A model generated the notes under the pieces. The model was given only the letters and a program-made list of their open reading frames with translations. It did not search any database and was not told the DNA's origin. 64,000 nucleotides of DNA from a bacterium (GTDB taxonomy: Bacteria; Hinthialibacterota; Hinthialibacteria; Hinthialibacterales; Hinthialibacteraceae), in the NCBI GenBank assembly GCA_963662285.2, contig CAXXMV010000003.1, forward strand, positions 96,001 through 160,000, written 5' to 3'. Both the position numbers and the translations under genes were made by a program. Positions 29,502 through 38,526 of this stretch are shown here, in pieces; within the stretch, counting starts at the first letter, position 1, and each line of letters opens with the position of its first letter.

Positions 29502-31352
29502 ATGACTCCCTCACTCGGATCTAATATCGACTTGACAGTAATTATTATTTACTTTTTGGCTATTCTGGTTTTTGGTAGTTTTTTCGGGAAATACACCAAG
29601 ACCACCAAAGATTTCTTCTTCGCCGGTCAGCGTTTTTCATGGTGGCTGATCGCCATGAGTTGCATCGCTACGCTGGTGGGATCTTATAGTTTTATAAAGT
29701 ACTCCAACCAGGCTTTTGAATACGGTATGCCCGCAACTCATGCTTATTTGAATGACTGGCCCTGGCTTTTTCTATGGCTGTTCGGCTGGTTTCCAGTGCT
29801 TTATTATTCAAGAGTTATTTCAGTGCCGGATTATTTTGAGAAGCGCTTTGGTTCGGGATGCCGGATGGCGGCTACTTTTATCCTATTGATCTATATGATT
29901 GGATACATCGGTTATAACTTTCTTACTATCGGTGTGGCGCTTGAGCCAATCCTGCAATGGAACCTATACGTCATTGTGGTTACGGTGGCTGTTATAGCTG
30001 CAATCTATGTTACGGCTGGTGGACAGACTGCCGTTATCATGACTGACCTGTTTCAGGGAGTGCTTTTGCTGTTGGCCGGACTGACCATACTAGTGGTCGG
30101 GTTCCATATGGTGGGCGGTTTTGGTGCGTTTTGGGATAGTTGGCCGGTTGAGCAGCGCAAAGCTTTCATGCCTCTTACCAAGCCCAGCGGATTCAATACC
30201 GTTGGAGTGTTCTGGCAGGACGGTATGGCCAATTCCGCTGCCTTCTGGTTTATGAACCAGGGGATTATTCTGCGCTTTCTCTCGGTAAAGAATGTTAAAG
30301 AGGGACGCAAGGCGATGATGGCTATTATGCTGATTCTGATGCCTCTTGCGGCCATTGCGGTCTGTTGCAGCGGGTGGATTGGCAGGTCTTTTGTGAATCA
30401 GGGAATTATGGAAATCCCTGAAAATTCCGAGACAGTTTTTGTATTGGTGGCAGATGCGGTAAGCCGGTTTTTGGAGATTCCCGGAATGTTCGGATTGATA
30501 ATCGCAGCGCTGACTGCGGCTTTGATGTCAACGGCGGATACTTTAATTAATGGAGTGTCGGTGGTTGCCACAAACGACGTCATCCGTCCTTATATATGGA
30601 AGAATCGTGCAGATGGATTTTATTTAAAATGCGCTCGATGGGTCTCTATCGGGGCGGCGCTGATCGGGATTTGTCTGGTTCCATTATTTCATTCATTTGG
30701 AAACCTGTATGATGCGCACGCAGCTTTTACGGCTTCGGTTACTCCGCCCATGGTTATGGCCATTATGATGGGATTTATCTGGAGGCGATATTCAGCCATG
30801 GGCGCCATGGCTACCTTGGTCGGCGGCATCCTATTCATGGCTTTGTCGATGGTGGAGCCTGCGGTGATTTATCCATTCAGTCATGGTATGGAAGCGGGAG
30901 GTGAAGGCATCAAGGCGTATAAATATATCCGGGCTTTTTATGGTATGTTTATGTCGGGCTTACTAGGAATCATTTTCACCTACTTGAGCGAGGCGCCGGT
31001 CAGAGAGAAATTGTTGCGTTATATCTGGGGCAGGGAACGGGTTCTTATGCAGGAATTTAAGGGATTTGAACCCAATACCGAATGTGGATCAACCGTGAAT
31101 TTAGCTATTAAGGTTTGTGAAGATTTGCAGGAAAACTCGGTTCGTATACCAACAGGCGCTATGCAAGAGATGAAGGCTTTGCAAGGCGACCTGGTGTTTC
31201 TTTCAGCGCCAGGTTGGATGCATGGCGGGCTTAAATCAGCTCATGGTCAGATACTGGGTGAATCGAAAACAGAGGTCGAAATTTCTGCGGCGTTGCTTGA
31301 TACAATTAGCGTCTCTGACGGTGATATGATTGTTGTGGAGAAGAATTTTTAG
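29502..31352 (+). CDS. Sodium:solute symporter with a soluble C-terminal extension
   Basis: DFFFAGQR, SVPDYFEKRFG, YVTAGGQTAVIMTDLFQ and AALMSTADT. Confidence 0.92.
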   Translation: MTPSLGSNIDLTVIIIYFLAILVFGSFFGKYTKTTKDFFFAGQRFSWWLIAMSCIATLVGSYSFIKYSNQAFEYGMPATHAYLNDWPWLFLWLFGWFPVLYYSRVISVPDYFEKRFGSGCRMAATFILLIYMIGYIGYNFLTIGVALEPILQWNLYVIVVTVAVIAAIYVTAGGQTAVIMTDLFQGVLLLLAGLTILVVGFHMVGGFGAFWDSWPVEQRKAFMPLTKPSGFNTVGVFWQDGMANSAAFWFMNQGIILRFLSVKNVKEGRKAMMAIMLILMPLAAIAVCCSGWIGRSFVNQGIMEIPENSETVFVLVADAVSRFLEIPGMFGLIIAALTAALMSTADTLINGVSVVATNDVIRPYIWKNRADGFYLKCARWVSIGAALIGICLVPLFHSFGNLYDAHAAFTASVTPPMVMAIMMGFIWRRYSAMGAMATLVGGILFMALSMVEPAVIYPFSHGMEAGGEGIKAYKYIRAFYGMFMSGLLGIIFTYLSEAPVREKLLRYIWGRERVLMQEFKGFEPNTECGSTVNLAIKVCEDLQENSVRIPTGAMQEMKALQGDLVFLSAPGWMHGGLKSAHGQILGESKTEVEISAALLDTISVSDGDMIVVEKNF

Positions 31353-31524
31353 GTATTCTTGGTGGGCTACGCTTTCGCTTTTAGCCCACCCTACGCGTAG
31401 GTGGGTTCAATCAAGGGCAGAAAAAAATACTGATGGTGATATGATTATTGTGGAGAAGAATTTTTAGGTTTTACATAGGTGGCATCAAGGGCTGACCGCA
31501 ATGCGGTCTTGCCCTTGGCACCCG
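31315..31524. repeat. 40-bp direct duplication of the SSS 3' end flanking REP family B and a partial C, followed by a full C copy
   Basis: 31315-31354 vs 31430-31469 (38/40 identical); B at 31361-31394; C at 31484-31524. Confidence 0.85.
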
Positions 31525-31579
31525 CTTTCGTCCCGTTATGGCGCCTGTCAGTATTCGTTTTGCCATTTTTTTATGATTA

Positions 31580-32233
31580 TCAATCAGAACTCCATCCGGG
31601 TTTTTTGAAAAAGTTGTTGTATTCGGAGTTGGTGATTCCCGGTTTGAATAACCAGACATACCATATATCGCCGTTGCTGGCTACTCCATTGGTTGAACCG
31701 TACGCAATGGTTTTGTAGTCGGGGTGCCAGTCGCCATTGTCGGCGTCAGGGCCTGAAGCTGCCAGTACGCCGAAATAACCTCCTTTATTAGAACATCCCC
31801 AGTCTTCATAGGAATAATATAATCCATCGGCGAAGGGATCGGTGGGGATGCTGCTGATGTAGGCGATTGGAGTGGTAAGAGGTAGATATATTTCTCCGTT
31901 GAAATGGTTAGCGCCTTTTTTTACGGAGATAGTAGATTGATCGGGATGCTTGCCGATGAAGGGGCCTTCGAAGCAGCATTCAGGAGTACCATCGCAATCG
32001 TTGCCGTCAATCAGCCACATATTGGTATCCATGTGGAATATATCAACCTGTTGTTTTATCATTTTGATGTCGGCCATAGTGCGGGCGACTTTGGCGCGAA
32101 TCTGGGCGTTGAGAAAGTTTGGTACAGCAATGGCGGCCAGGATGCCGATGATGGCGACTACGATCAGAAGTTCGATTAAAGTAAAGCCAATATTTGAGTG
32201 TATGGATTTTTTTTCTAAGTTTGAAAAATGCAT
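31580..32233 (-). CDS. Prepilin-type N-terminal cleavage/methylation protein (GspG-like pseudopilin)
   Basis: GFTLIELLIVVAIIGILAAIAVPNF, LTTPIAYISSIPTDPF, SGPD and YGSTNGVASNGDI; GGAG RBS. Confidence 0.9.
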   Translation of the reverse strand: MHFSNLEKKSIHSNIGFTLIELLIVVAIIGILAAIAVPNFLNAQIRAKVARTMADIKMIKQQVDIFHMDTNMWLIDGNDCDGTPECCFEGPFIGKHPDQSTISVKKGANHFNGEIYLPLTTPIAYISSIPTDPFADGLYYSYEDWGCSNKGGYFGVLAASGPDADNGDWHPDYKTIAYGSTNGVASNGDIWYVWLFKPGITNSEYNNFFKKPGWSSD

Positions 32234-32250
32234 AGTATTTTTCTCCAGGG

Positions 32251-32287
32251 AAGAAAATGGGGATGAATCAGTGAACGATTCATCCCC
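32251..32287 (-). terminator. Intrinsic terminator of paralog 1
   Basis: GGGGATGAATC / GATTCATCCCC followed by ATTTTCTT on the minus strand. Confidence 0.8.
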
Positions 32288-32345
32288 CAATTACTCATCT
32301 TTTGTTCAACGATGTAGCAGTCAATTAACGTAACAACGTTAATTT

Positions 32346-33785
32346 TTAGTATAGCGTCCAGTCTGTTACAGGCGTTCCTTTGTCTACGGTTACGCGGACG
32401 TTATCAACGACCCAGAAACCTTCCATTTGATCAGGATCGGCGCCTTTGGCTGCAAAGCGGAAGATGACGCCGCTTTTACCGGCAGCTTCAGGAACTTCAA
32501 AGTAATGATGGGTGAAATAAGGAGATTCCTCGTAATTCGTCAAAGCTTCGTGATAAGTGAAGAGGCGGGTGAAATTAGCGCCAGAGTCAACGCTGTAGAA
32601 AACTTCATAACGGGCAATACTATTACCAACCAGCACTTCTGAATCGAAATCCATGTAAACGGCGGCAGCGTCGCTAAGATCGAGAGTTGGAGTATCGAGG
32701 TCAGCGCCTTGATCTACATCTTCGGCCAACATACCTTCTTGCCACATGGCGTAACCCTGACCAGCCAGCATGAGTACCCATCTGCCATCAAGCGTGCCAT
32801 TAGGATTAAGCAATTCATCAACTTCTGTGGCTAGGTCAATAGTATATTCGTAGAATTTTGCATGGTTGAGTAGGTCGATATCAACGAATTCACCGTTTTT
32901 CTCTTTAAGAGGACCTTCATCCAAATACCATAGGCAGCGTACATCCCACTTTTGATCTTTTGCAGGAGTATTGCCCCATTCGGCTGGAATGCCATTTTCA
33001 AAATCTTCAGAAAGAACAGTTTCTGCGCCTAGTGGAGCAGGGGTAGAATCAATCACGAGGTCATCGATAGCAACCCACCATGCATCGGCTGGTTCAAAGT
33101 AACCAAAACGCAGGCGAACTTCAGCTTGATTGGCTGCTGCGGCTGGTAATGGAAAATGCACCCGGCCATGAATTCCGTCAAAACTCAAAAATTGATTGGC
33201 GCTTCCCAGTTCTGGATATCCACCTGAGAAAGCTGCGCCGTCAATGCCATTATCCCAGCCTTTGATGGGGCGTTGTGGTTCAACGCATTGCCAGATGGGA
33301 AGCCAGGTTGCGCCGCCATCAATAGTGACAGCAAACTGGAAGACGCATTCGCCGTTGTTATTTGAATCAACTTCGACATTGGCGTGCATCCAGACTTCGC
33401 TGGCGCCGACTGTGCTGAAAACTGGCGTTAATGCCCAGATTTCGGATTCTGAGCCAATATTGTCAGAACCGCTGCCAGCATCAGAGTCGGCCATTAAGTA
33501 ACCGCCATCAGAAGCAGTACCATCGGCTTTAGGTGGATTGATAAAGCCTGTGTCGGTTCCAGGACCATCCTGGCCTTCAGGCCATTCTGGAGCGATAATG
33601 AAGTTACTGCCAACTTCAGCAACAAATTCGTTTTCAGTAAATTCCCAACCACGGGATAGTGCGCCGACGGTGCCTCCCGTGTTAAAATCGTCTTCGAAAA
33701 AAACTTGAGCATTACTTTGAGGTACGCACAATATGAGAGCTGCGAGACTAGTTAAAGCGAAAATTTTCAGAGATGTTCTTATCAT
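32346..33785 (-). CDS. Secreted 479-aa protein with two jelly-roll/MAM-like repeats (paralog 1)
   Basis: GGAGGA RBS, signal peptide ending SNA, internal repeat EDDF..W..IDDL / EDFENG..W..VDNV, ends TPVTDWTLY. Confidence 0.85.
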   Translation of the reverse strand: MIRTSLKIFALTSLAALILCVPQSNAQVFFEDDFNTGGTVGALSRGWEFTENEFVAEVGSNFIIAPEWPEGQDGPGTDTGFINPPKADGTASDGGYLMADSDAGSGSDNIGSESEIWALTPVFSTVGASEVWMHANVEVDSNNNGECVFQFAVTIDGGATWLPIWQCVEPQRPIKGWDNGIDGAAFSGGYPELGSANQFLSFDGIHGRVHFPLPAAAANQAEVRLRFGYFEPADAWWVAIDDLVIDSTPAPLGAETVLSEDFENGIPAEWGNTPAKDQKWDVRCLWYLDEGPLKEKNGEFVDIDLLNHAKFYEYTIDLATEVDELLNPNGTLDGRWVLMLAGQGYAMWQEGMLAEDVDQGADLDTPTLDLSDAAAVYMDFDSEVLVGNSIARYEVFYSVDSGANFTRLFTYHEALTNYEESPYFTHHYFEVPEAAGKSGVIFRFAAKGADPDQMEGFWVVDNVRVTVDKGTPVTDWTLY

Positions 33786-34177
33786 GGATAATCCTCCTAT
33801 TTTATTATACTTATAGTCTTTCTTTACTTCATTAAGGCTGTTCGTTGAAACATTGATGAGAAACCAAATCATATTAATTTGAAAATTTAACATAATTTTA
33901 ATACTGATGGAAGTAGAAAATACAAAAAATCAGAAAACATTCGATCTAGTGGTGGATGGATATATTACCTCGCTTTCTGTAATATTCATTAGATTAAAAG
34001 AATATATTTTGTAAATCGCTCTAGTCGGCGGTTATGATGTGAAATATTTCTTTAATTATCACATGAGAAGAATATATAGCGGAAATGTTTTGGCTTTATA
34101 AAGGGGATGTTTGATTTGTGTGATTTTTCGTGAGAGGGAGGTGGTTAAAAGGAAAATCAGTTATTTTTTAAACCGGG

Positions 34178-34214
34178 AAGAAAAAGGGGATGAACCGTTT
34201 CCCGATTCATCCCC
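34178..34214 (-). terminator. Intrinsic terminator of paralog 2
   Basis: Minus strand GGGGATGAATCG / CGGTTCATCCCC followed by TTTTTCTT; homologous to 32251-32287. Confidence 0.8.
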
Positions 34215-34382
34215 CATACTCATCTTTTGTTCAACGAAATGACTGTTAATAAGAGCGATTCTTAAAATAACGTGCTTTAATCCGGGTGTTTAAAGTCCCC
34301 AGAAGATGGGACTTTAAACAAATCCAAAGTTATCAATGCGCATATATTTTTGTTAACCGCTATAACCATAAAAACGTTAATT

Positions 34383-35822
34383 CTAGTATAGCGTCCAATC
34401 TGTTACAGGAGTTCCCTTGTCAACAGTTACGCGAACGTTATCAACAACCCAGAAACCGTTCATTTGGTCAGGATCGGCGCCTTTGGCTGCAAAGCGGAAG
34501 ATTACGCCGCTTTTACCAGCAGCATCAGGAACTTCAAAGTAATGATGGGTGAAATAAGGGGATTCTTCGTAATTCGTCAAAGCTTCGTGATAAGTGAAAA
34601 GGCGGGTGAAATTAGCGCCGGAATCAACGCTGTAGAAAACTTCATAACGGACATCGCCATTACCAGCCAGCACTTCGGAATCGAAATCCATGTAAACGGC
34701 GGCAGCGTCGCTAAGATCGAGAGTTGGCGTATCTAAGTCAGCGCCTTGATCTACGTCTTCGGCCAGCATACCTTCTTGCCACATGGCGTAACCCTGACCA
34801 GCCAGCATGAGAACCCATCTGCCATCAAGGCTGCCGTTGGGATTTAGAAATTCGTCAACTTCTGTAGTAAAGTCGATGGTATAGTCCATGGATGCTGCAT
34901 GGTCAAGGATGTCGATATCAACGAATTCGCCATTATTTTCTTTGAGAGGACCTTCATCCAAATACCAAAGAGCTCTTACATCCCAAGCTTGAGTCATCAA
35001 TGGAGTGTTGCCCCATGTTGCCGGGATGCCATTTTCGAAATCTTCAGAAAGAACTGTTTCTGCGCCTTGAGGAGCAGGATTAGTATCAATCACGAGGTCA
35101 TCTAGAGCAATCCACCATGCATCGGCAGGTTCTAAGTATCCAAAGCGTAAACGAACTTCAGCTTGGTTAGCTGCTTCGGCTGGCAATTGGAAATGCACCC
35201 GGCCATGAATACCATCATAACTTAAAAATTGGTTAGCGCTTCCCAGTTCGGGATATCCGCCGGAGAAAGCTGCGCCATCAATGACATTATCCCAGGCTTT
35301 AATGGGGCGTTGTGGTTCAACGCATTGCCAGATGGGCAACCAAGTGGCGCCGCCATCAATAGTGACGGCAAACTGGAATACGCATTCGCCGTTGTTATTT
35401 GAATCAACGTCAACATTGGCGTGCATCCAGACTTCACTGGCGCCTACGGTGCTGAAGACGGGCGTCAAAGCCCAGATTTCAGATTCGGAGCCAATGTTAT
35501 CAGAACCGGAACCGGCATCTGAGTCAGCTATTAAGAAACCGCCATCTGATGCAGTACCATCGGCTTTAGGTGGATTGATGAAATCTGTGTTAGTTCCAGG
35601 GCCGTCTTGACCTTCAGGCCATTCTGGAGCAACGATGAAGTTACTGCCAACTTCGGCAACAAATTCGTTTTCTACAAATTCCCAACCACGAGCAACGGCG
35701 CCAGCGGTGCCGCCTGTATTAAAATCGTCTTCGAAGAGCACTTGAGCATTACTCTGAACTACGCCCAATGTAAGAGCGGCGATGCCGGATAATACTAAAG
35801 TTTTCAGAGATGTCTTGATCAT
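34383..35822 (-). CDS. Secreted 479-aa protein with two jelly-roll/MAM-like repeats (paralog 2)
   Basis: Same length as paralog 1 with long identical stretches; GGAGGA RBS; ends TPVTDWTLY. Confidence 0.87.
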   Translation of the reverse strand: MIKTSLKTLVLSGIAALTLGVVQSNAQVLFEDDFNTGGTAGAVARGWEFVENEFVAEVGSNFIVAPEWPEGQDGPGTNTDFINPPKADGTASDGGFLIADSDAGSGSDNIGSESEIWALTPVFSTVGASEVWMHANVDVDSNNNGECVFQFAVTIDGGATWLPIWQCVEPQRPIKAWDNVIDGAAFSGGYPELGSANQFLSYDGIHGRVHFQLPAEAANQAEVRLRFGYLEPADAWWIALDDLVIDTNPAPQGAETVLSEDFENGIPATWGNTPLMTQAWDVRALWYLDEGPLKENNGEFVDIDILDHAASMDYTIDFTTEVDEFLNPNGSLDGRWVLMLAGQGYAMWQEGMLAEDVDQGADLDTPTLDLSDAAAVYMDFDSEVLAGNGDVRYEVFYSVDSGANFTRLFTYHEALTNYEESPYFTHHYFEVPDAAGKSGVIFRFAAKGADPDQMNGFWVVDNVRVTVDKGTPVTDWTLY

Positions 35823-36319
35823 TGATTGTCCTCCAATAATTTATTGTACGTCAAAAATCTGATAAAACCTGTCGTTAAAACAAGGATGAGTAATGTATAA
35901 CATATCATAATATAATATTCTTAACTATTTATTATTACATATATGAATACACTTTACGAGTTATGCAAGGGGGAATATATTAATTTTTCATTAAAAATAC
36001 ATTAGAATAACGGTAAATTTATGGCTTAAAGTAAAATATATGCTTTTTGCATTAACAATATGTAATCAAATTGGCAATATTATATGCGACCATGCCTTTA
36101 ACAAGATAATCAACCAAGTGAATTGGGGATTGGGTATTCAATATTCGAGGTTTTTGCATGAGTGCTAACAACAGTTTCAGGATAAATGAGATTGTTTCTA
36201 AATAGTAATGTTAGTTTGCAGTAGTTATCTAGAGGGAGATATAATATAAAATATCATGGAATGTTTTATTGCAAATTTCTATTAAGAAAAAAAATAGTGA
36301 TATTACCCGAAAAAAGTGA

Positions 36320-36348
36320 TTGACAACGTAGAAATGATAGAGTATATT
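36320..36348 (+). promoter_or_regulatory. Near-consensus sigma70 promoter
   Basis: TTGACA-N17-TATATT. Confidence 0.8.
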
Positions 36349-36354
36349 TATAAG

Positions 36355-36573
36355 TAGATCGACGGATAACAGATCCGGTTTCGATAAGGATTGAGCGCCT
36401 TAACAGCTCTGCGTGGGCAATGTGGCTAATGCCATGAGCCGCGAGAATAGGTCCCTAAGGGGATTACGAATATATTGTTAACTAAGGTGAAAGAGAGGTC
36501 ATACAGCGTGGAAGAAACGCTTATAGACTTTTGAGAAGGAGTCGTTCGAAACTGAATGACTCCTTCTTATTTT
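36355..36573 (+). ncRNA. Candidate stand-alone structured ncRNA (~220 nt), family not recognised
   Basis: Bounded by the promoter and a plus-polarity terminator (36534-36573); GC-richer than its flanks; several helices; only very short ORFs. Confidence 0.65.
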
Positions 36574-36615
36574 AAATGAATTATTAATATATCTTTACAA
36601 TTGTAAAAATATATT

Positions 36616-38526
36616 CTATTTTACTATATTACTTGTTCCAAGTAATGCATTCAGCGTGTGATTTGCAACGCGTATTACGTATTTATTATTGTCTTTCATA
36701 ACTGCCTGTAGACTGGTAATCGAAGGACGAGCCATCTCTCCAATATTGTCTAGCGCAATTGCCGCGTTAAGGCGAATCCATTCTTCTTCACTTTTTAATA
36801 GTTTTTCCAAAACAGGAAGCGCTTTTTCAGGTTGATTCATGCGGCAAAGAGCGCGAGCTGCTGCGATTTGTACGCTGCCGGATTGGTCGCTGAGGGCTTC
36901 GGTTAGAAGAGTTTCCGCTTTTGATGCGTCTGAGCCAAGGTTGCCCAGGCCAATGGCGCCCCAATAACGAACTATCGAATCGACGTCGTTCAATGCTTCG
37001 ATAAGACTATTGATGCCTTTGGCGCCTTGTTCTGGAAGTTGGGCTGCGGCAATGGTGCGTTCGATTAATGCGTCTCCGCCAGTTTGCCGGGCAATGGCGT
37101 ATTCACTACCGAATTTTTTAGTGCGCTCGCGGATTTCCGGTTCGGGAATAAAACCTATGTCTTTGGTCTCTTTGACCCACTTTACATGAGCCTTACGCAT
37201 ACGTTTAAGAATATCTTGGCATCGGGGCGACTTCGCTAAGTTATTGGTTTCGTGGGGATCGTTTTGCAAATCATACAGTTCTTCCAAAGGCTTTTGCGGC
37301 GCCATGAATAGTTGCGCTTGGGGTGGTAACTTTCCTTCAGCATGAACCCGGCGGATTTCTTTCATGGTGGCGCCCTTTTCGGGGGTGTTCATGTATTGAT
37401 AGTAGGTTTTGTAAGGTTCGTAGTTACGGATGTACTTGTAGCGTTTGTCGCGAACCGCACGGATTATGTCGTAGCGTTCATCCATGCGGTCTCGTGCGCC
37501 ATATATGTAGTCGCGTGGTCTGGTGAGGTTCTCTCCTAGAAAAGCGCGTCCCTGCATGTGATCGGGTATCTTGATTCCCGCCAGGTTAAGAACGGTCGGG
37601 GCGAGGTCGACGAAACTGACCAGTTCGTCATTGGTTGAACCGGGTGCGCCAGGTTTAGGGCTGCGCAGTTTTTCAGGGATGTGAACGATCATTGGTACGC
37701 GCAATCCAGAATCGTATAACCAGCGTTTGGCGCGGGGCAAACCAATGCCATGATCGGAGAAAAAGATAACGATAGTGTTATCCGTTAATCCATCATCATC
37801 CAATTGCTTTAGAATTTCCGCGACCTGCATATCCATAGCGGTAATCAAATCGTAGTTACGCGCCCAATCTTTTCGGGTGATCGGGGTATCTGGATAGTAG
37901 GGGGGAAGGGTGGTTAATTTTTCTGGATCATGCTTTTGGTCATCAGAAAGGTTTTGGGTTGCTTTGTTATATAATTCTTCGCTGGCGATGCGGCTTTCAT
38001 GAGTGGTTACGAAATTGAAGATGGAGAAGAATGGTTGGTCTTTATTTTTGCGGTAGCGCCAGTGGGCTTTATTATCGCATTGATCCCAGGCCGATTTTGG
38101 GTGATTGAACTGATAATCAGTCTTGGCGTTATTGGTGCAATAATATCCTGCATCACGCATGTATTCGCTGAAGCATTTGATGTGGGGCGGGGGAGTCGCT
38201 TTGCAGCGCATGTGATGCGAACCTAGGGTGGTTTGGTATACTCCGGTAATGATGCATGAGCGGTTGGGAGCGCATACTCCACATACGGCGTAGGCGTTGG
38301 TATAGCGAACGCCATTGCGGGCGAGACGGTCGAGAGTGGGCGTGGTTGCGTGAGGATCGCCGTAACAACCCAGGTGGGGGCTGATATCTTCACAGGTGAG
38401 CCATAGAATATTGGGCTTCTGGCTATCATCTTGACTAGCCAGCGTATTGTGCGCTATCGATATTGATGCGGCGCTCAGGCTGGTTGTTTTGAGAAAACTT
38501 CGTCGGTTTAGATTATTGAGTTTCAT
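36616..38526 (-). CDS. Tat-exported sulfatase with C-terminal HEAT repeats
   Basis: NRRSFLK, PNILWLTCED, CAPNRSCIITG and SDHG; VRYWGAIGLG, VQIAAARAL and IRLNAAIAL repeats. Confidence 0.93.
   Translation of the reverse strand: MKLNNLNRRSFLKTTSLSAASISIAHNTLASQDDSQKPNILWLTCEDISPHLGCYGDPHATTPTLDRLARNGVRYTNAYAVCGVCAPNRSCIITGVYQTTLGSHHMRCKATPPPHIKCFSEYMRDAGYYCTNNAKTDYQFNHPKSAWDQCDNKAHWRYRKNKDQPFFSIFNFVTTHESRIASEELYNKATQNLSDDQKHDPEKLTTLPPYYPDTPITRKDWARNYDLITAMDMQVAEILKQLDDDGLTDNTIVIFFSDHGIGLPRAKRWLYDSGLRVPMIVHIPEKLRSPKPGAPGSTNDELVSFVDLAPTVLNLAGIKIPDHMQGRAFLGENLTRPRDYIYGARDRMDERYDIIRAVRDKRYKYIRNYEPYKTYYQYMNTPEKGATMKEIRRVHAEGKLPPQAQLFMAPQKPLEELYDLQNDPHETNNLAKSPRCQDILKRMRKAHVKWVKETKDIGFIPEPEIRERTKKFGSEYAIARQTGGDALIERTIAAAQLPEQGAKGINSLIEALNDVDSIVRYWGAIGLGNLGSDASKAETLLTEALSDQSGSVQIAAARALCRMNQPEKALPVLEKLLKSEEEWIRLNAAIALDNIGEMARPSITSLQAVMKDNNKYVIRVANHTLNALLGTSNIVK

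What the first reader, a model, noticed from the sequence alone, without database searches (positions are those of the whole stretch)
32292..35892. Whole-gene panhandle: each paralog's mRNA 5' end is complementary to a conserved 21-mer just before its terminator
Seen: the identical 21-mer TACTCATCTTTTGTTCAACGA lies at 32292-32312 and 34217-34237, immediately before each terminator in mRNA sense, although the two 3'UTRs differ in length and sequence. Imperfect inverted copies lie upstream of each gene: TCGTTGAAACATTGATGAG (33842-33860) and TCGTTAAAACAAGGATGAGTA (35872-35892). Candidate -10 boxes (TATGAT 33873-33868; extended TGaTATGTT 35907-35899) place +1 at the start of these arms. The RNA pairing would be 6+4+6 bp and 8+5+6 bp with the internal loop and U bulge at equivalent positions, closing a 1.5-1.65 kb loop. 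Inference: a selected end-to-end mRNA duplex (protection from 5'-end decay, a processing or circularisation stem, or a protein-binding site), or alternatively inverted sites for a recombinase or DNA-looping protein. I do not recognise it as a described element.
Basis: partly seen in the sequence, partly recalled or inferred. Interest (0 to 1): 0.85.

Follow-up and report, generated by a model that had tools for sequence, protein, structure and literature searches.

The report
Gene-end complementary arms flanking two paralogs
Two tandem copies of a secreted-protein gene each carry a short conserved sequence near the gene's start that can pair with a perfectly conserved 21-base sequence just before the terminator, probably an mRNA end-to-end contact of a kind already known from one Bacillus gene, though this is unproven.

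Summary
The 21-mer is exact at 32292-32312 and 34217-34237, and imperfect inverted copies lie at 33842-33860 and 35872-35892. All four flank two tandem paralogs (479 aa, 88.5% identical) on the minus strand. The degenerate motif occurs nowhere else in the 7.29 Mb genome.

Chance is not fully excluded. An open 200 x 200 nt scan of the flanks does not beat shuffles. The targeted test (28 nt before the terminator against the 5' region) gives p = 0.001-0.005, and the two genes rank 1st and 5th of 638 terminator-bearing genes. Both arms are conserved where the other non-coding flank sequence no longer aligns (21 of 21 against about 69% identity at four-fold sites).

Against selection: six of seven orthologs tested from other genera lack such pairing, the transcription start is unknown, and a conserved TAYAAT box lies downstream of the arms.

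Best reading (0.45) is RNA pairing of the 5' leader with the pre-terminator element. It would act in cis, like the B. subtilis hbs 5'/3'-UTR interaction, or in trans as a 3'UTR-derived sRNA. Rivals are a DNA-binding site pair, chance, and inversion.

The unequal 3'UTR lengths come from a MITE-like insertion. This is not a new kind of element, and interest is moderate.

The parts
31580..32233 (-). Downstream gene: a 217-aa protein with a prepilin-type N-terminal methylation motif (pseudopilin-like). Its ATG lies 26 nt after the copy-1 terminator hairpin.
   Evidence: Pfam N_methyl 1e-07. NCBIfam pilin and GspG N-terminal hits, all below the full-family cut-offs except the IV_pilin_GFxxxE domain. 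The same gene follows the ortholog in 6 of 8 related genera.
32259..32287 (-). Intrinsic-terminator hairpin of paralog 1 (GGGGATGAATC..GATTCATCCCC), followed by ATTTTCTT.
   Evidence: 3' end fold z = -5.1. The hairpin is conserved in 7 of 8 orthologs, with an invariant GGGATG/CATCCC base and a covarying upper stem.
32292..32312 (-). 3' arm of paralog 1. In mRNA sense it reads TCGTTGAACAAAAGATGAGTA and ends 4 nt before the hairpin.
   Evidence: Identical to the copy-2 arm in 21 of 21 positions, although four-fold sites differ at 63 of 204.
32346..33785 (-). Paralog 1 coding sequence: 479 aa, with a signal peptide and beta-sandwich domains of unknown function.
   Evidence: Weak Reelin_subrepeat-B (2e-05, below cut-off) and choice-of-anchor J (0.008, below cut-off). 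Atlas neighbours are named cleaved-adhesin-like.
33804..33809 (-). Alternative -10 candidate TATAAT, 18 nt upstream of the ATG and downstream of the 5' arm.
   Evidence: Read. It is matched by TACAAT at the same relative place in copy 2. Function not shown.
33842..33860 (-). 5' arm of paralog 1. In mRNA sense it reads CTCATCAATGTTTCAACGA, at -75 to -57 from the ATG.
   Evidence: It is 16 of 19 identical to the copy-2 arm at the syntenic place.
33868..33873 (-).
   Evidence: Present in the sequence. Not listed by the consensus promoter scan. Function not shown.
34185..34215 (-). Intrinsic-terminator hairpin of paralog 2, followed by TTTTCTT.
34217..34237 (-). 3' arm of paralog 2, identical to the copy-1 arm and ending 1 nt before the hairpin.
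34252..34364 (.). A MITE-like ~113-nt repeat with its own hairpin, inserted into the copy-2 3'UTR between the stop codon and the 3' arm.
   Evidence: 21 other copies of at least 100 nt at 72-89% identity in the genome. Contig depth is 53 against about 8 here, and contigs break here.
34383..35822 (-). Paralog 2 coding sequence: 479 aa, 88.5% identical to paralog 1.
   Evidence: 86.3% nucleotide identity; third codon positions 72.3%.
35843..35848 (-). Alternative -10 candidate TACAAT, 20 nt upstream of the ATG and downstream of the 5' arm.
   Evidence: Read. Function not shown.
35872..35892 (-). 5' arm of paralog 2. In mRNA sense it reads TACTCATCCTTGTTTTAACGA, at -70 to -50 from the ATG.
35899..35907 (-).
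   Evidence: Present in the sequence. Not listed by the promoter scan. Function not shown.

Best explanation
The 19-21 nt element in each paralog's leader and the 21-nt element just 5' of each terminator are a selected RNA-RNA pairing pair. The single-stranded pre-terminator element pairs with the start of the leader as two 6-8 bp helices around a small internal loop, at about -19 to -21 kcal/mol, and the terminator hairpin stays intact beside it.

I think the most likely form is a cis long-range 5'/3'-UTR interaction of the B. subtilis hbs type. It would hide the otherwise unstructured 5' end or leader from 5'-end-dependent or endonucleolytic attack (RNase Y and RNase E/G are encoded) and so stabilise an abundant secreted-protein mRNA. 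I put this sub-share at about 0.30.

The same complementarity could work in trans. A 3'UTR-derived fragment of about 70 nt (seed plus terminator, Hfq is encoded) would then pair with the leaders of both paralogs. I put this sub-share at about 0.15.

Shown: the sequences, their conservation, their uniqueness in the genome and their thermodynamic plausibility.
Inferred: that the 5' arm is transcribed, that the pairing forms in the cell, and that it has any effect on stability or translation.
For: (1) Both arms are conserved where the remaining flank sequence is not. The 3' arm is 21 of 21 identical, and the adjacent terminator block is 35 of 42 identical with the differences concentrated in the loop. 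Four-fold sites differ at 63 of 204 (K = 0.40), so 0.69^21 is about 4e-4. The 5' arms are 16 of 19 identical at syntenic positions (-75 and -68) in flanks that otherwise do not align.

(2) The two conserved elements are complementary to each other. The 3' arm is the best partner of the 5' arm along the whole mRNA in both copies: -18.7 and -20.8 kcal/mol against window means of -7.8 and -6.7, sd 2.9 and 2.8.

(3) Targeted significance. p = 0.005 and 0.001 when the 5' region is shuffled, and 0.010 and 0.004 when the pre-terminator is shuffled (1000 shuffles each). Against other genes' 5' regions the native pair is reached by 1 of 300. Composition-adjusted z is -4.3 and -3.7, ranks 1 and 5 of 638 terminator-plus-ORF pairs.

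(4) Cofolding the leader with the 3' end puts the arm-arm duplex in the minimum-energy dimer in all 4 combinations, with a gain of -11.0 to -15.1 kcal/mol and the terminator kept.

(5) The leaders fold less well than their shuffles (z = +1.7 and +1.0), so the 5' arms are free. The 3' arms are mostly unpaired beside a strong hairpin.

(6) The four differences between the two 5' arms fall as follows: two in the internal loop, one is C to U opposite G (G-C becomes G-U), and one is at the helix end. None breaks the interior of a helix.

(7) The motif CTCATC-N5-TT-N-AACGA occurs only at these 4 sites in 7.29 Mb, so it is neither a dispersed repeat nor a regulon-wide site.

(8) A precedent has the same geometry and energy: hbs, 14 bp, 3' arm just upstream of the terminator, -19 kcal/mol, proven by compensatory mutants (PMC5737220 section 16).

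(9) RNase Y (1 hit), RNase E/G (2 hits) and Hfq (1 hit) are encoded.
Against: (1) No transcription start is known. The promoter scan lists no promoter upstream of either arm. A conserved TATAAT/TACAAT box lies between the arms and the Shine-Dalgarno sequence. If that box is the promoter, the 5' arms are not in the mRNA.

(2) An untargeted scan of 200 x 200 nt does not beat shuffles. About 10% of genes reach -20 kcal/mol or lower before composition adjustment (63 of 638 real against 61.7 permuted).

(3) The two copies descend from one duplication, so there is effectively one independent instance and no true compensatory change, because the 3' arms are identical.

(4) Of the seven orthologs from other genera with a GGGGATG-type hairpin, only L007 shows suggestive pre-terminator/5' pairing (p = 0.01 to 0.03). 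The other six do not (fractions 0.12 to 1.0).

(5) There is no genome-wide habit of such pairing.

(6) The 3' arm is more conserved than pairing alone requires, because its loop bases are also invariant. It may therefore have another function.

(7) The pairing would have to close a translated loop of 1.5 to 1.65 kb, whereas I recall the hbs ORF as being only about 0.3 kb.
Confidence: 0.45

Rival explanations
1. The complementarity is chance, and the two elements have separate functions. The 5' element is conserved for a promoter or leader function. The 21-mer is conserved for a function tied to the terminator or the downstream pilin-like gene, for example a processing site, a protein-binding site on the RNA, or a sRNA seed for other targets. 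A single ancestral chance match was then copied by the tandem duplication.
For: The open scan of the flanks is at chance level, and inverted repeats of similar quality are common in the 5.1-kb region (93 pairs). The null gives 2 of 638 genes at z <= -3.5. There is only one independent instance. Six of seven orthologs tested show no such pairing, although they keep the terminator hairpin. The 3' arm is invariant even at bases that would not pair.
Against: The best complement of the 21-mer in the 200-nt 5' region is exactly the one block conserved at a syntenic position between the two copies. Targeted p is 0.001 to 0.005. The substitutions between the 5' arms avoid helix interiors.
Confidence: 0.28
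2. The arms are DNA sites for one sequence-specific protein. The asymmetric bipartite site, CTCATC and TTYAACGA about one helical turn apart, would be bound in inverted orientation near each promoter and at each gene's end. The protein would act as an activator or repressor at the promoter, possibly with looping to the distal site.
For: The four sites share two conserved blocks separated by a variable 5-bp spacer. If the conserved TATAAT/TACAAT boxes (33804-33809 and 35843-35848) are the promoters, the 5' arms lie at about -45 to -63 and -36 to -56, which are typical activator positions (read). The 9-bp difference between the two copies is close to one helical turn.
Against: No DNA-binding regulator was found among the ORFs of 150 aa or more that I scanned between 21.8 and 46.4 kb of the window. 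The motif occurs at no other locus in the genome or, outside coding frames, in 34 other genomes of the class. A distal site placed 1-4 nt from a terminator and perfectly conserved through its spacer is not what a protein half-site model predicts. The C/T difference gives a G-U pair in the gene-sense RNA but a plain mismatch in DNA.
Confidence: 0.2
3. The arms are inverted recombination sites. A site-specific recombinase would invert either a whole gene or the 356-bp segment between arms 33842-33860 and 34217-34237, which holds the copy-1 promoter region and the copy-2 terminator. The result would be a phase switch.
For: Arms 33841-33860 and 34219-34238 are inverted repeats 358 nt apart around a promoter-containing intergenic segment (I13). 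On the plus strand this segment carries a promoter-like site (TTGTAA-18-TATGAT, 34009-34038). It also carries a GGGAGGTGG box whose best match is the gene-sense leader of ortholog L004 (score 34, against 17-27 for the other comparisons).
Against: The repeats are only 77-83% matched. No tyrosine or serine recombinase gene lies in the window; the nearest Phage_integrase hit on this contig is at C3:410790, about 280 kb away. Contigs from both DNA runs bridge all four arms in the reference orientation, with no joints. These are low-depth contigs, which drop rare variants. Part of the segment aligns in the same orientation to the region upstream of copy 2, which has no partner repeat.
Confidence: 0.05

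Closest known systems
B. subtilis hbs mRNA 5'/3'-UTR long-range interaction (Braun, Durand & Condon 2017, PMC5737220; abstract and section 16 read)
   Same: [quoted passage not shown] The energy is about -19 kcal/mol there and -18.7 and -20.8 here. The host encodes RNase Y.
   Different: The hbs interaction is 14 contiguous bp, lies internal to a structured leader and overlaps an RNase Y site. It spans a short ORF (length recalled, not checked) and is proven by compensatory mutants. Here the duplex is bipartite (8+2-3+6-8 bp), lies at the presumed 5' end of an unstructured leader, would span 1.5-1.65 kb, and is untested.
Autoregulatory 3'UTR-derived sRNAs OppZ and CarZ of Vibrio cholerae (Hoyos et al. 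2020, PMC7398697; abstract only)
   Same: A conserved 3'UTR end (seed plus terminator) is complementary to its own transcript. RNase E/G and Hfq homologs are encoded here. The seed is more conserved than the target sites, which is the usual pattern for sRNAs (my inference from two copies).
   Different: OppZ and CarZ inhibit translation of a cistron. Here the target lies 40-55 nt upstream of the Shine-Dalgarno sequence and does not overlap the ribosome-binding site. No processed fragment has been shown.
icaR 3'UTR-5'UTR pairing in Staphylococcus aureus, and sRNA protection of a 5' end (RoxS-yflS).
   Same: End-to-end or 5'-end pairing that changes mRNA stability or translation.
   Different: As I recall, the icaR 3'UTR pairs with the Shine-Dalgarno region. 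Here the ribosome-binding site is left free.
STAB-SD 5' mRNA stabiliser of cry3A (review PMC4113751, passages read)
   Same: A device in the leader of a very highly expressed gene that protects the 5' end. Six of eight orthologs of this gene carry a GGAGGT box at -83 to -146 that is not the gene's own Shine-Dalgarno sequence. The two window copies lack it in gene sense.
   Different: STAB-SD works by binding the 30S subunit, not by pairing with the 3'UTR. It bears on the orthologs, not on the arms themselves. No RNase J C-terminal domain was found in this genome, which is 92.5% complete.
Invertible promoter switches (fimS, Bacteroides invertons), recalled from memory
   Same: Inverted repeats of about 20 bp bracket a segment of about 360 bp that holds a promoter region.
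   Different: The repeats here are imperfect, no recombinase gene is nearby, and only one orientation is seen.

Membership tests
hbs-type 5'/3'-UTR long-range interaction | Complementary segments, one in the 5' region and one in the 3'UTR of the same gene, with a duplex energy near -19 kcal/mol | tested here: met
   -18.7 and -20.8 kcal/mol. The duplex is present in the cofold minimum.
hbs-type 5'/3'-UTR long-range interaction | [quoted passage not shown] | tested here: met
   The arms end 4 nt and 1 nt before the hairpins.
hbs-type 5'/3'-UTR long-range interaction | The 5' segment lies inside the transcribed leader | not testable with these tools
   No RNA reads of this organism were available. 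The only RNA run, X3, covers part of the copy-2 coding region at 90-95% identity. Two candidate -10 boxes exist, one upstream and one downstream of the arms.
hbs-type 5'/3'-UTR long-range interaction | Pairing in vivo shown by disruption and compensatory rescue, with an effect on RNase cleavage or stability | not testable with these tools
   This needs experiments. RNase Y and RNase E/G genes are present.
Autoregulatory 3'UTR-derived sRNA (OppZ/CarZ type) | A stable processed RNA comprising the 3'UTR end and the terminator | not testable with these tools
   No RNA data. The seed-plus-terminator architecture is present.
Autoregulatory 3'UTR-derived sRNA (OppZ/CarZ type) | Pairs with its own transcript at a translation-initiation region | tested here: not met
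   Complementarity to the gene's own leader is present, but at -75 to -57 and -70 to -50. It does not overlap the Shine-Dalgarno sequence at about -12.
Autoregulatory 3'UTR-derived sRNA (OppZ/CarZ type) | Hfq and RNase E are available | tested here: met
   Hfq 3.6e-23; RNase_E_G, two hits.
Invertible DNA switch | A recombinase gene nearby and both orientations present in the DNA | tested here: not met
   No Phage_integrase or Resolvase hit in the window. Contigs of X1 and X2 bridge all four arms in one orientation with no joints. These are contigs only, at depth of about 2-9, so a rare variant is not excluded.
Dispersed repeat (MITE or REP) or regulon-wide site | Many copies of the motif across the genome | tested here: not met
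   The 21-mer at up to 4 mismatches gives 6 hits, of which 3 are these sites and 3 are poor. The degenerate motif gives 4 of 4 hits at this locus. Matches in other genomes of the class all lie inside long open frames and have no inverted partner (8 of 9 examined).
Any Rfam family | A covariance-model match at or near the gathering score | tested here: not met
   The best match in 31000-37000 is 26.5 bits against a gathering score of 100, E = 0.22.

The most novel reading that the evidence does not exclude
The invariant 21-mer plus terminator is released as a small RNA from either paralog and pairs with the extreme 5' end of both paralogs' leaders. The two tandem copies would then sense and adjust each other's output, giving RNA-level dosage feedback between duplicated genes. 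The target would be the mRNA 5' end rather than the ribosome-binding site. A bolder version adds that the same 5' element, which resembles the terminator's 3' strand (TCATCC), also tunes read-through into the pilin-like gene.
Probability: 0.12. Interest if true: 0.65.

Novelty: new member of a known kind. Interest (0 to 1): 0.35.

Why it matters
If the pairing is real, it would be a clear second case of the hbs-type arrangement, in which a leader pairs with a segment abutting the terminator. It would come from a sulfatase-rich marine bacterium far from Firmicutes, and the mRNA would be several times longer than I recall hbs to be. That would suggest end-to-end mRNA contacts are a general but rarely noticed stabilising device.

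The locus also offers a compact test system. It has two natural variants of the 5' arm, one invariant 3' arm, and a natural 113-nt insertion that changes the distance between the arms.

If the pairing is not real, the case is a useful caution. A chance inverted repeat copied by gene duplication looks like two independent instances when it is only one.

Tried and rejected
Arms as ends of a mobile gene cassette: rejected. Orthologs in 8 other genera sit in the same synteny (gene, GGGGATG hairpin, pilin-like gene) without arms, and the motif is not repeated elsewhere.

uORF or leader peptide across the 5' arm: rejected. Both copies have an ATG upstream and the arm is read in the same frame. However, there is no Shine-Dalgarno sequence, the frame ends differently in the two copies, and the differences between the copies are at first and second codon positions (read).

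Small ORF across the 3' arm and hairpin: rejected. The frame is broken by the 2-nt indel between the copies.

Antiterminator role for the 21-mer: rejected. The terminator hairpin dominates the fold.

Other targets of a putative seed: 68 other exact matches of 11-13 nt in the genome, about what chance gives. The one near a gene start (C1:121877) is part of a local palindrome after a stop codon. Inconclusive.

Genome-wide habit of 5'/pre-terminator pairing: none. Of the four other loci at z <= -3.5, one is caused by palindromic repeats on both flanks and one pairs inside the coding region. The other two are AT-rich and were not followed up.

Closer relatives: none found. The metagenome scan gave 2 distant loci at 44-45% identity. 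The genome scan gave 4 Verrucomicrobiota MAG loci at 41-50% identity with different terminators. The family search returned the same 8 orthologs.

Unconstrained RNAduplex on long flanks gave meaningless long duplexes and was dropped. My first two terminator finders missed one or both copies and were replaced.

RNA run X3 holds only short contigs at 90-95% identity to part of copy 2 and to the generic pilin N-terminus. It says nothing about the UTRs.

Supplements of papers were not consulted. They might hold hbs structure-probing details but do not bear on this locus. I did not search the literature for this specific locus or organism.

Full report
WHAT IS THERE. The region holds two tandem paralogs on the minus strand, at 32346-33785 and 34383-35822. 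Each encodes 479 aa and they are 88.5% identical at the protein level. At the nucleotide level they are 86.3% identical, with 72.3% identity at third codon positions. Four-fold sites differ at 63 of 204, giving K = 0.40. The proteins have a signal peptide and only sub-threshold beta-sandwich matches: Reelin subrepeat B, choice-of-anchor J, and cleaved-adhesin-like neighbours. Downstream of copy 1 lies a 217-aa protein with a prepilin N-terminal motif. The neighbourhood encodes sulfatases, glycoside-hydrolase-like proteins, a sodium:solute symporter and a chemoreceptor. I found no DNA-binding regulator or recombinase. The window is C3:96001-160000 of a 7.29 Mb genome with 44% G+C.

THE OBSERVATION. 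The 21-mer is exact at 32292-32312 and 34217-34237. Its imperfect inverted copies are at 33842-33860 and 35872-35892. Terminator hairpins with T-runs follow both 3' arms. In the alignment of the two 3' ends, the 21-mer (21 of 21) and the hairpin stems are conserved. The loop and the rest of the 3'UTR differ.

The large length difference between the 3'UTRs has a simple cause. A repeat of about 113 nt sits at about 34252-34364 in copy 2. It has 21 other copies of at least 100 nt in the genome, and it shows up as a depth spike and as contig breaks in the source runs.

In the 5' flanks the only similarity at a syntenic position upstream of the Shine-Dalgarno region is the arm, 16 of 19 identical at -75 and -68. 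Its raw score is no higher than the best score of shuffled flanks. Its position, not its score, is what singles it out. By eye I also find a conserved GTAYAATAAA block just upstream of the Shine-Dalgarno sequence (33804-33809 and 35843-35848), which the aligner misplaced.

IS IT MORE THAN CHANCE? The answer depends on the question asked.
- An open Smith-Waterman scan of 200 nt of 5' flank against 200 nt of 3' flank is at chance level for both copies. Inverted repeats of this quality are common in the region.
- When I ask the specific question, whether the 28 nt before the terminator pair with the 200-nt 5' region, the native energies (-18.1 and -20.6 kcal/mol) are reached by 0.1-1% of dinucleotide shuffles and by 1 of 300 other genes' 5' regions.
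- I built a genome-wide set of 1934 terminator-like sites, of which 638 have an upstream ORF of at least 100 aa. Raw energies show no excess over permuted pairs: 63 against 61.7 at -20 kcal/mol or lower.
- After adjusting each pre-terminator for its composition, the two paralogs rank 1st and 5th of 638, with z = -4.3 and -3.7. Six real pairs reach z <= -3.5, against 2 of 638 in the null.
- Of the other four real pairs, one is explained by palindromic repeats on both flanks and one pairs inside coding sequence.

The feature is therefore specific to this locus and extreme for this genome. It is not a genomic habit, and one ancestral chance pair cannot be excluded on energy alone. What raises the odds is that the best complement of the invariant 21-mer is exactly the conserved 5' block.

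RNA PLAUSIBILITY. Along each whole mRNA, the 3' arm is the best partner of the 5' arm. Copy 1 has one near competitor at 33336, at -17.9 kcal/mol. Cofolding the leader with the 3' end forms the arm-arm duplex in all four own and cross combinations, gaining -11.0 to -15.1 kcal/mol with the terminator intact. The leaders are less structured than their shuffles (z = +1.7 and +1.0), and the 3' ends are dominated by the terminator. The four differences between the two 5' arms lie in the internal loop (two), at a G-C to G-U change (one) and at a helix end (one). RNase Y, two RNase E/G homologs and Hfq are encoded. No RNase J C-terminal domain was found, in a genome that is 92.5% complete.

COMPARATIVE EVIDENCE. 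Orthologs at 50-62% identity exist in 8 other genera of the same family.
- Seven of the eight keep a hairpin with an invariant GGGATG/CATCCC base and a covarying upper stem: 5 of 14 pairs show compensatory change across 9 sequences.
- Six of the eight keep the pilin-like gene downstream.
- Only one of the seven with the hairpin (L007) shows suggestive pre-terminator/5' pairing, at p = 0.01 to 0.03, and its architecture is different. The other six show none.
- The degenerate motif is found in 8 of 34 other genomes of the class, in one or two copies each. All 8 of the 9 places I examined lie inside long open frames and have no inverted partner.
- No closer relatives could be found.

The arms are therefore specific to this lineage, and the test by co-variation cannot be run.

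DNA-LEVEL RIVALS. The contigs of both DNA runs bridge every arm in the reference orientation and show no joints. They are low-depth contigs, so rare inversions are not excluded. No recombinase gene is in the window. A protein-site model stays open because the transcription start is unknown. If the TATAAT/TACAAT boxes are the promoters, the 5' arms sit at activator-like positions. No regulator gene is nearby and no other site exists in the genome.

COMPARISON WITH WHAT IS KNOWN. The closest described case is the hbs mRNA of B. subtilis. A 14-nt leader segment pairs with a fully complementary segment just upstream of the terminator, at -19 kcal/mol, and modulates RNase Y cleavage. This was proven by compensatory mutants (PMC5737220, section 16). 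The geometry and energy here are nearly the same. The differences are the bipartite helix, the position at the presumed 5' end, the much longer loop, and the lack of any experiment.

The second model is the OppZ/CarZ type of autoregulatory 3'UTR-derived sRNA (PMC7398697, abstract). It fits the stronger conservation of the 3' element. It does not fit on target position, because the site does not overlap the ribosome-binding site.

No Rfam family matches.

VERDICT. It is not demonstrated, and it is not a new kind of element. Chance with separate functions (0.28), a DNA-binding site pair (0.20) and inversion (0.05) remain open. Interest is moderate at 0.35.

Noticed in passing
window 34252-34364: A MITE-like repeat of about 113 nt with an internal hairpin (GTTTAAAGTCCC..GGGACTTTAAAC) is inserted in the 3'UTR of paralog 2. 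The genome holds 21 other copies of at least 100 nt at 72-89% identity, plus fragments. Contig depth there is 53 against about 8.
   Followed up: partly
window 32259-32287 and 34185-34215; L002-L008 just after the stop codons: The terminator hairpin between the secreted-protein gene and the pilin-like gene is conserved across 8 genera. Its 6-bp base, GGGATG/CATCCC, is invariant, while the upper stem covaries (5 of 14 pairs compensatory). That is more sequence constraint than a plain terminator needs.
   Followed up: partly
L002, L003, L004, L005, L007, L009 at -83 to -146 from the ATG; window 34135-34147 (plus strand): Six of eight orthologs carry a GGAGGT box far upstream of their own Shine-Dalgarno sequence, resembling a STAB-SD 5' stabiliser. 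The two window copies lack it in gene sense. A very similar box (score 34 against L004) lies on the opposite strand, between the copy-2 terminator and the copy-1 promoter region.
   Followed up: partly
window, codons 331-450 of both paralogs (about 32436-32795 and 34473-34832): Third-position identity is 0.87-0.90 across nucleotides 991-1350 of the coding sequences, against 0.57-0.83 elsewhere. This suggests a more recent gene-conversion tract or stronger constraint there.
   Followed up: no
window 32323-32344 (minus strand): A perfect 9-bp hairpin (AAUUAACGU-UGUU-ACGUUAAUU) starts 1 nt after the stop codon of paralog 1. In paralog 2 the matching place is where the repeat element is inserted.
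   Followed up: no
L007 (G009:C60), 5' region -105 to -61 and the 28 nt before its terminator: This ortholog has its own 8-bp plus 6-bp complementarity between the leader and the pre-terminator (-19.5 kcal/mol, p = 0.01 to 0.03). It includes TCAACG/CGTTGA with the sides swapped relative to the window.
   Followed up: partly
window 34576-35379: A marine-sediment metatranscriptome run (X3) holds short contigs 90-95% identical to the coding region of paralog 2, so a close relative's gene is present in an RNA library. Nothing covers the UTRs.
   Followed up: no
G000:C2:1635201-1635700: A small HTH-like gene of 114 aa is flanked on both sides by copies of a palindromic element (CCTCTCCCA..TGGGAGAGG). 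This produces a spurious 5'/3' complementarity (z = -4.0).
   Followed up: no
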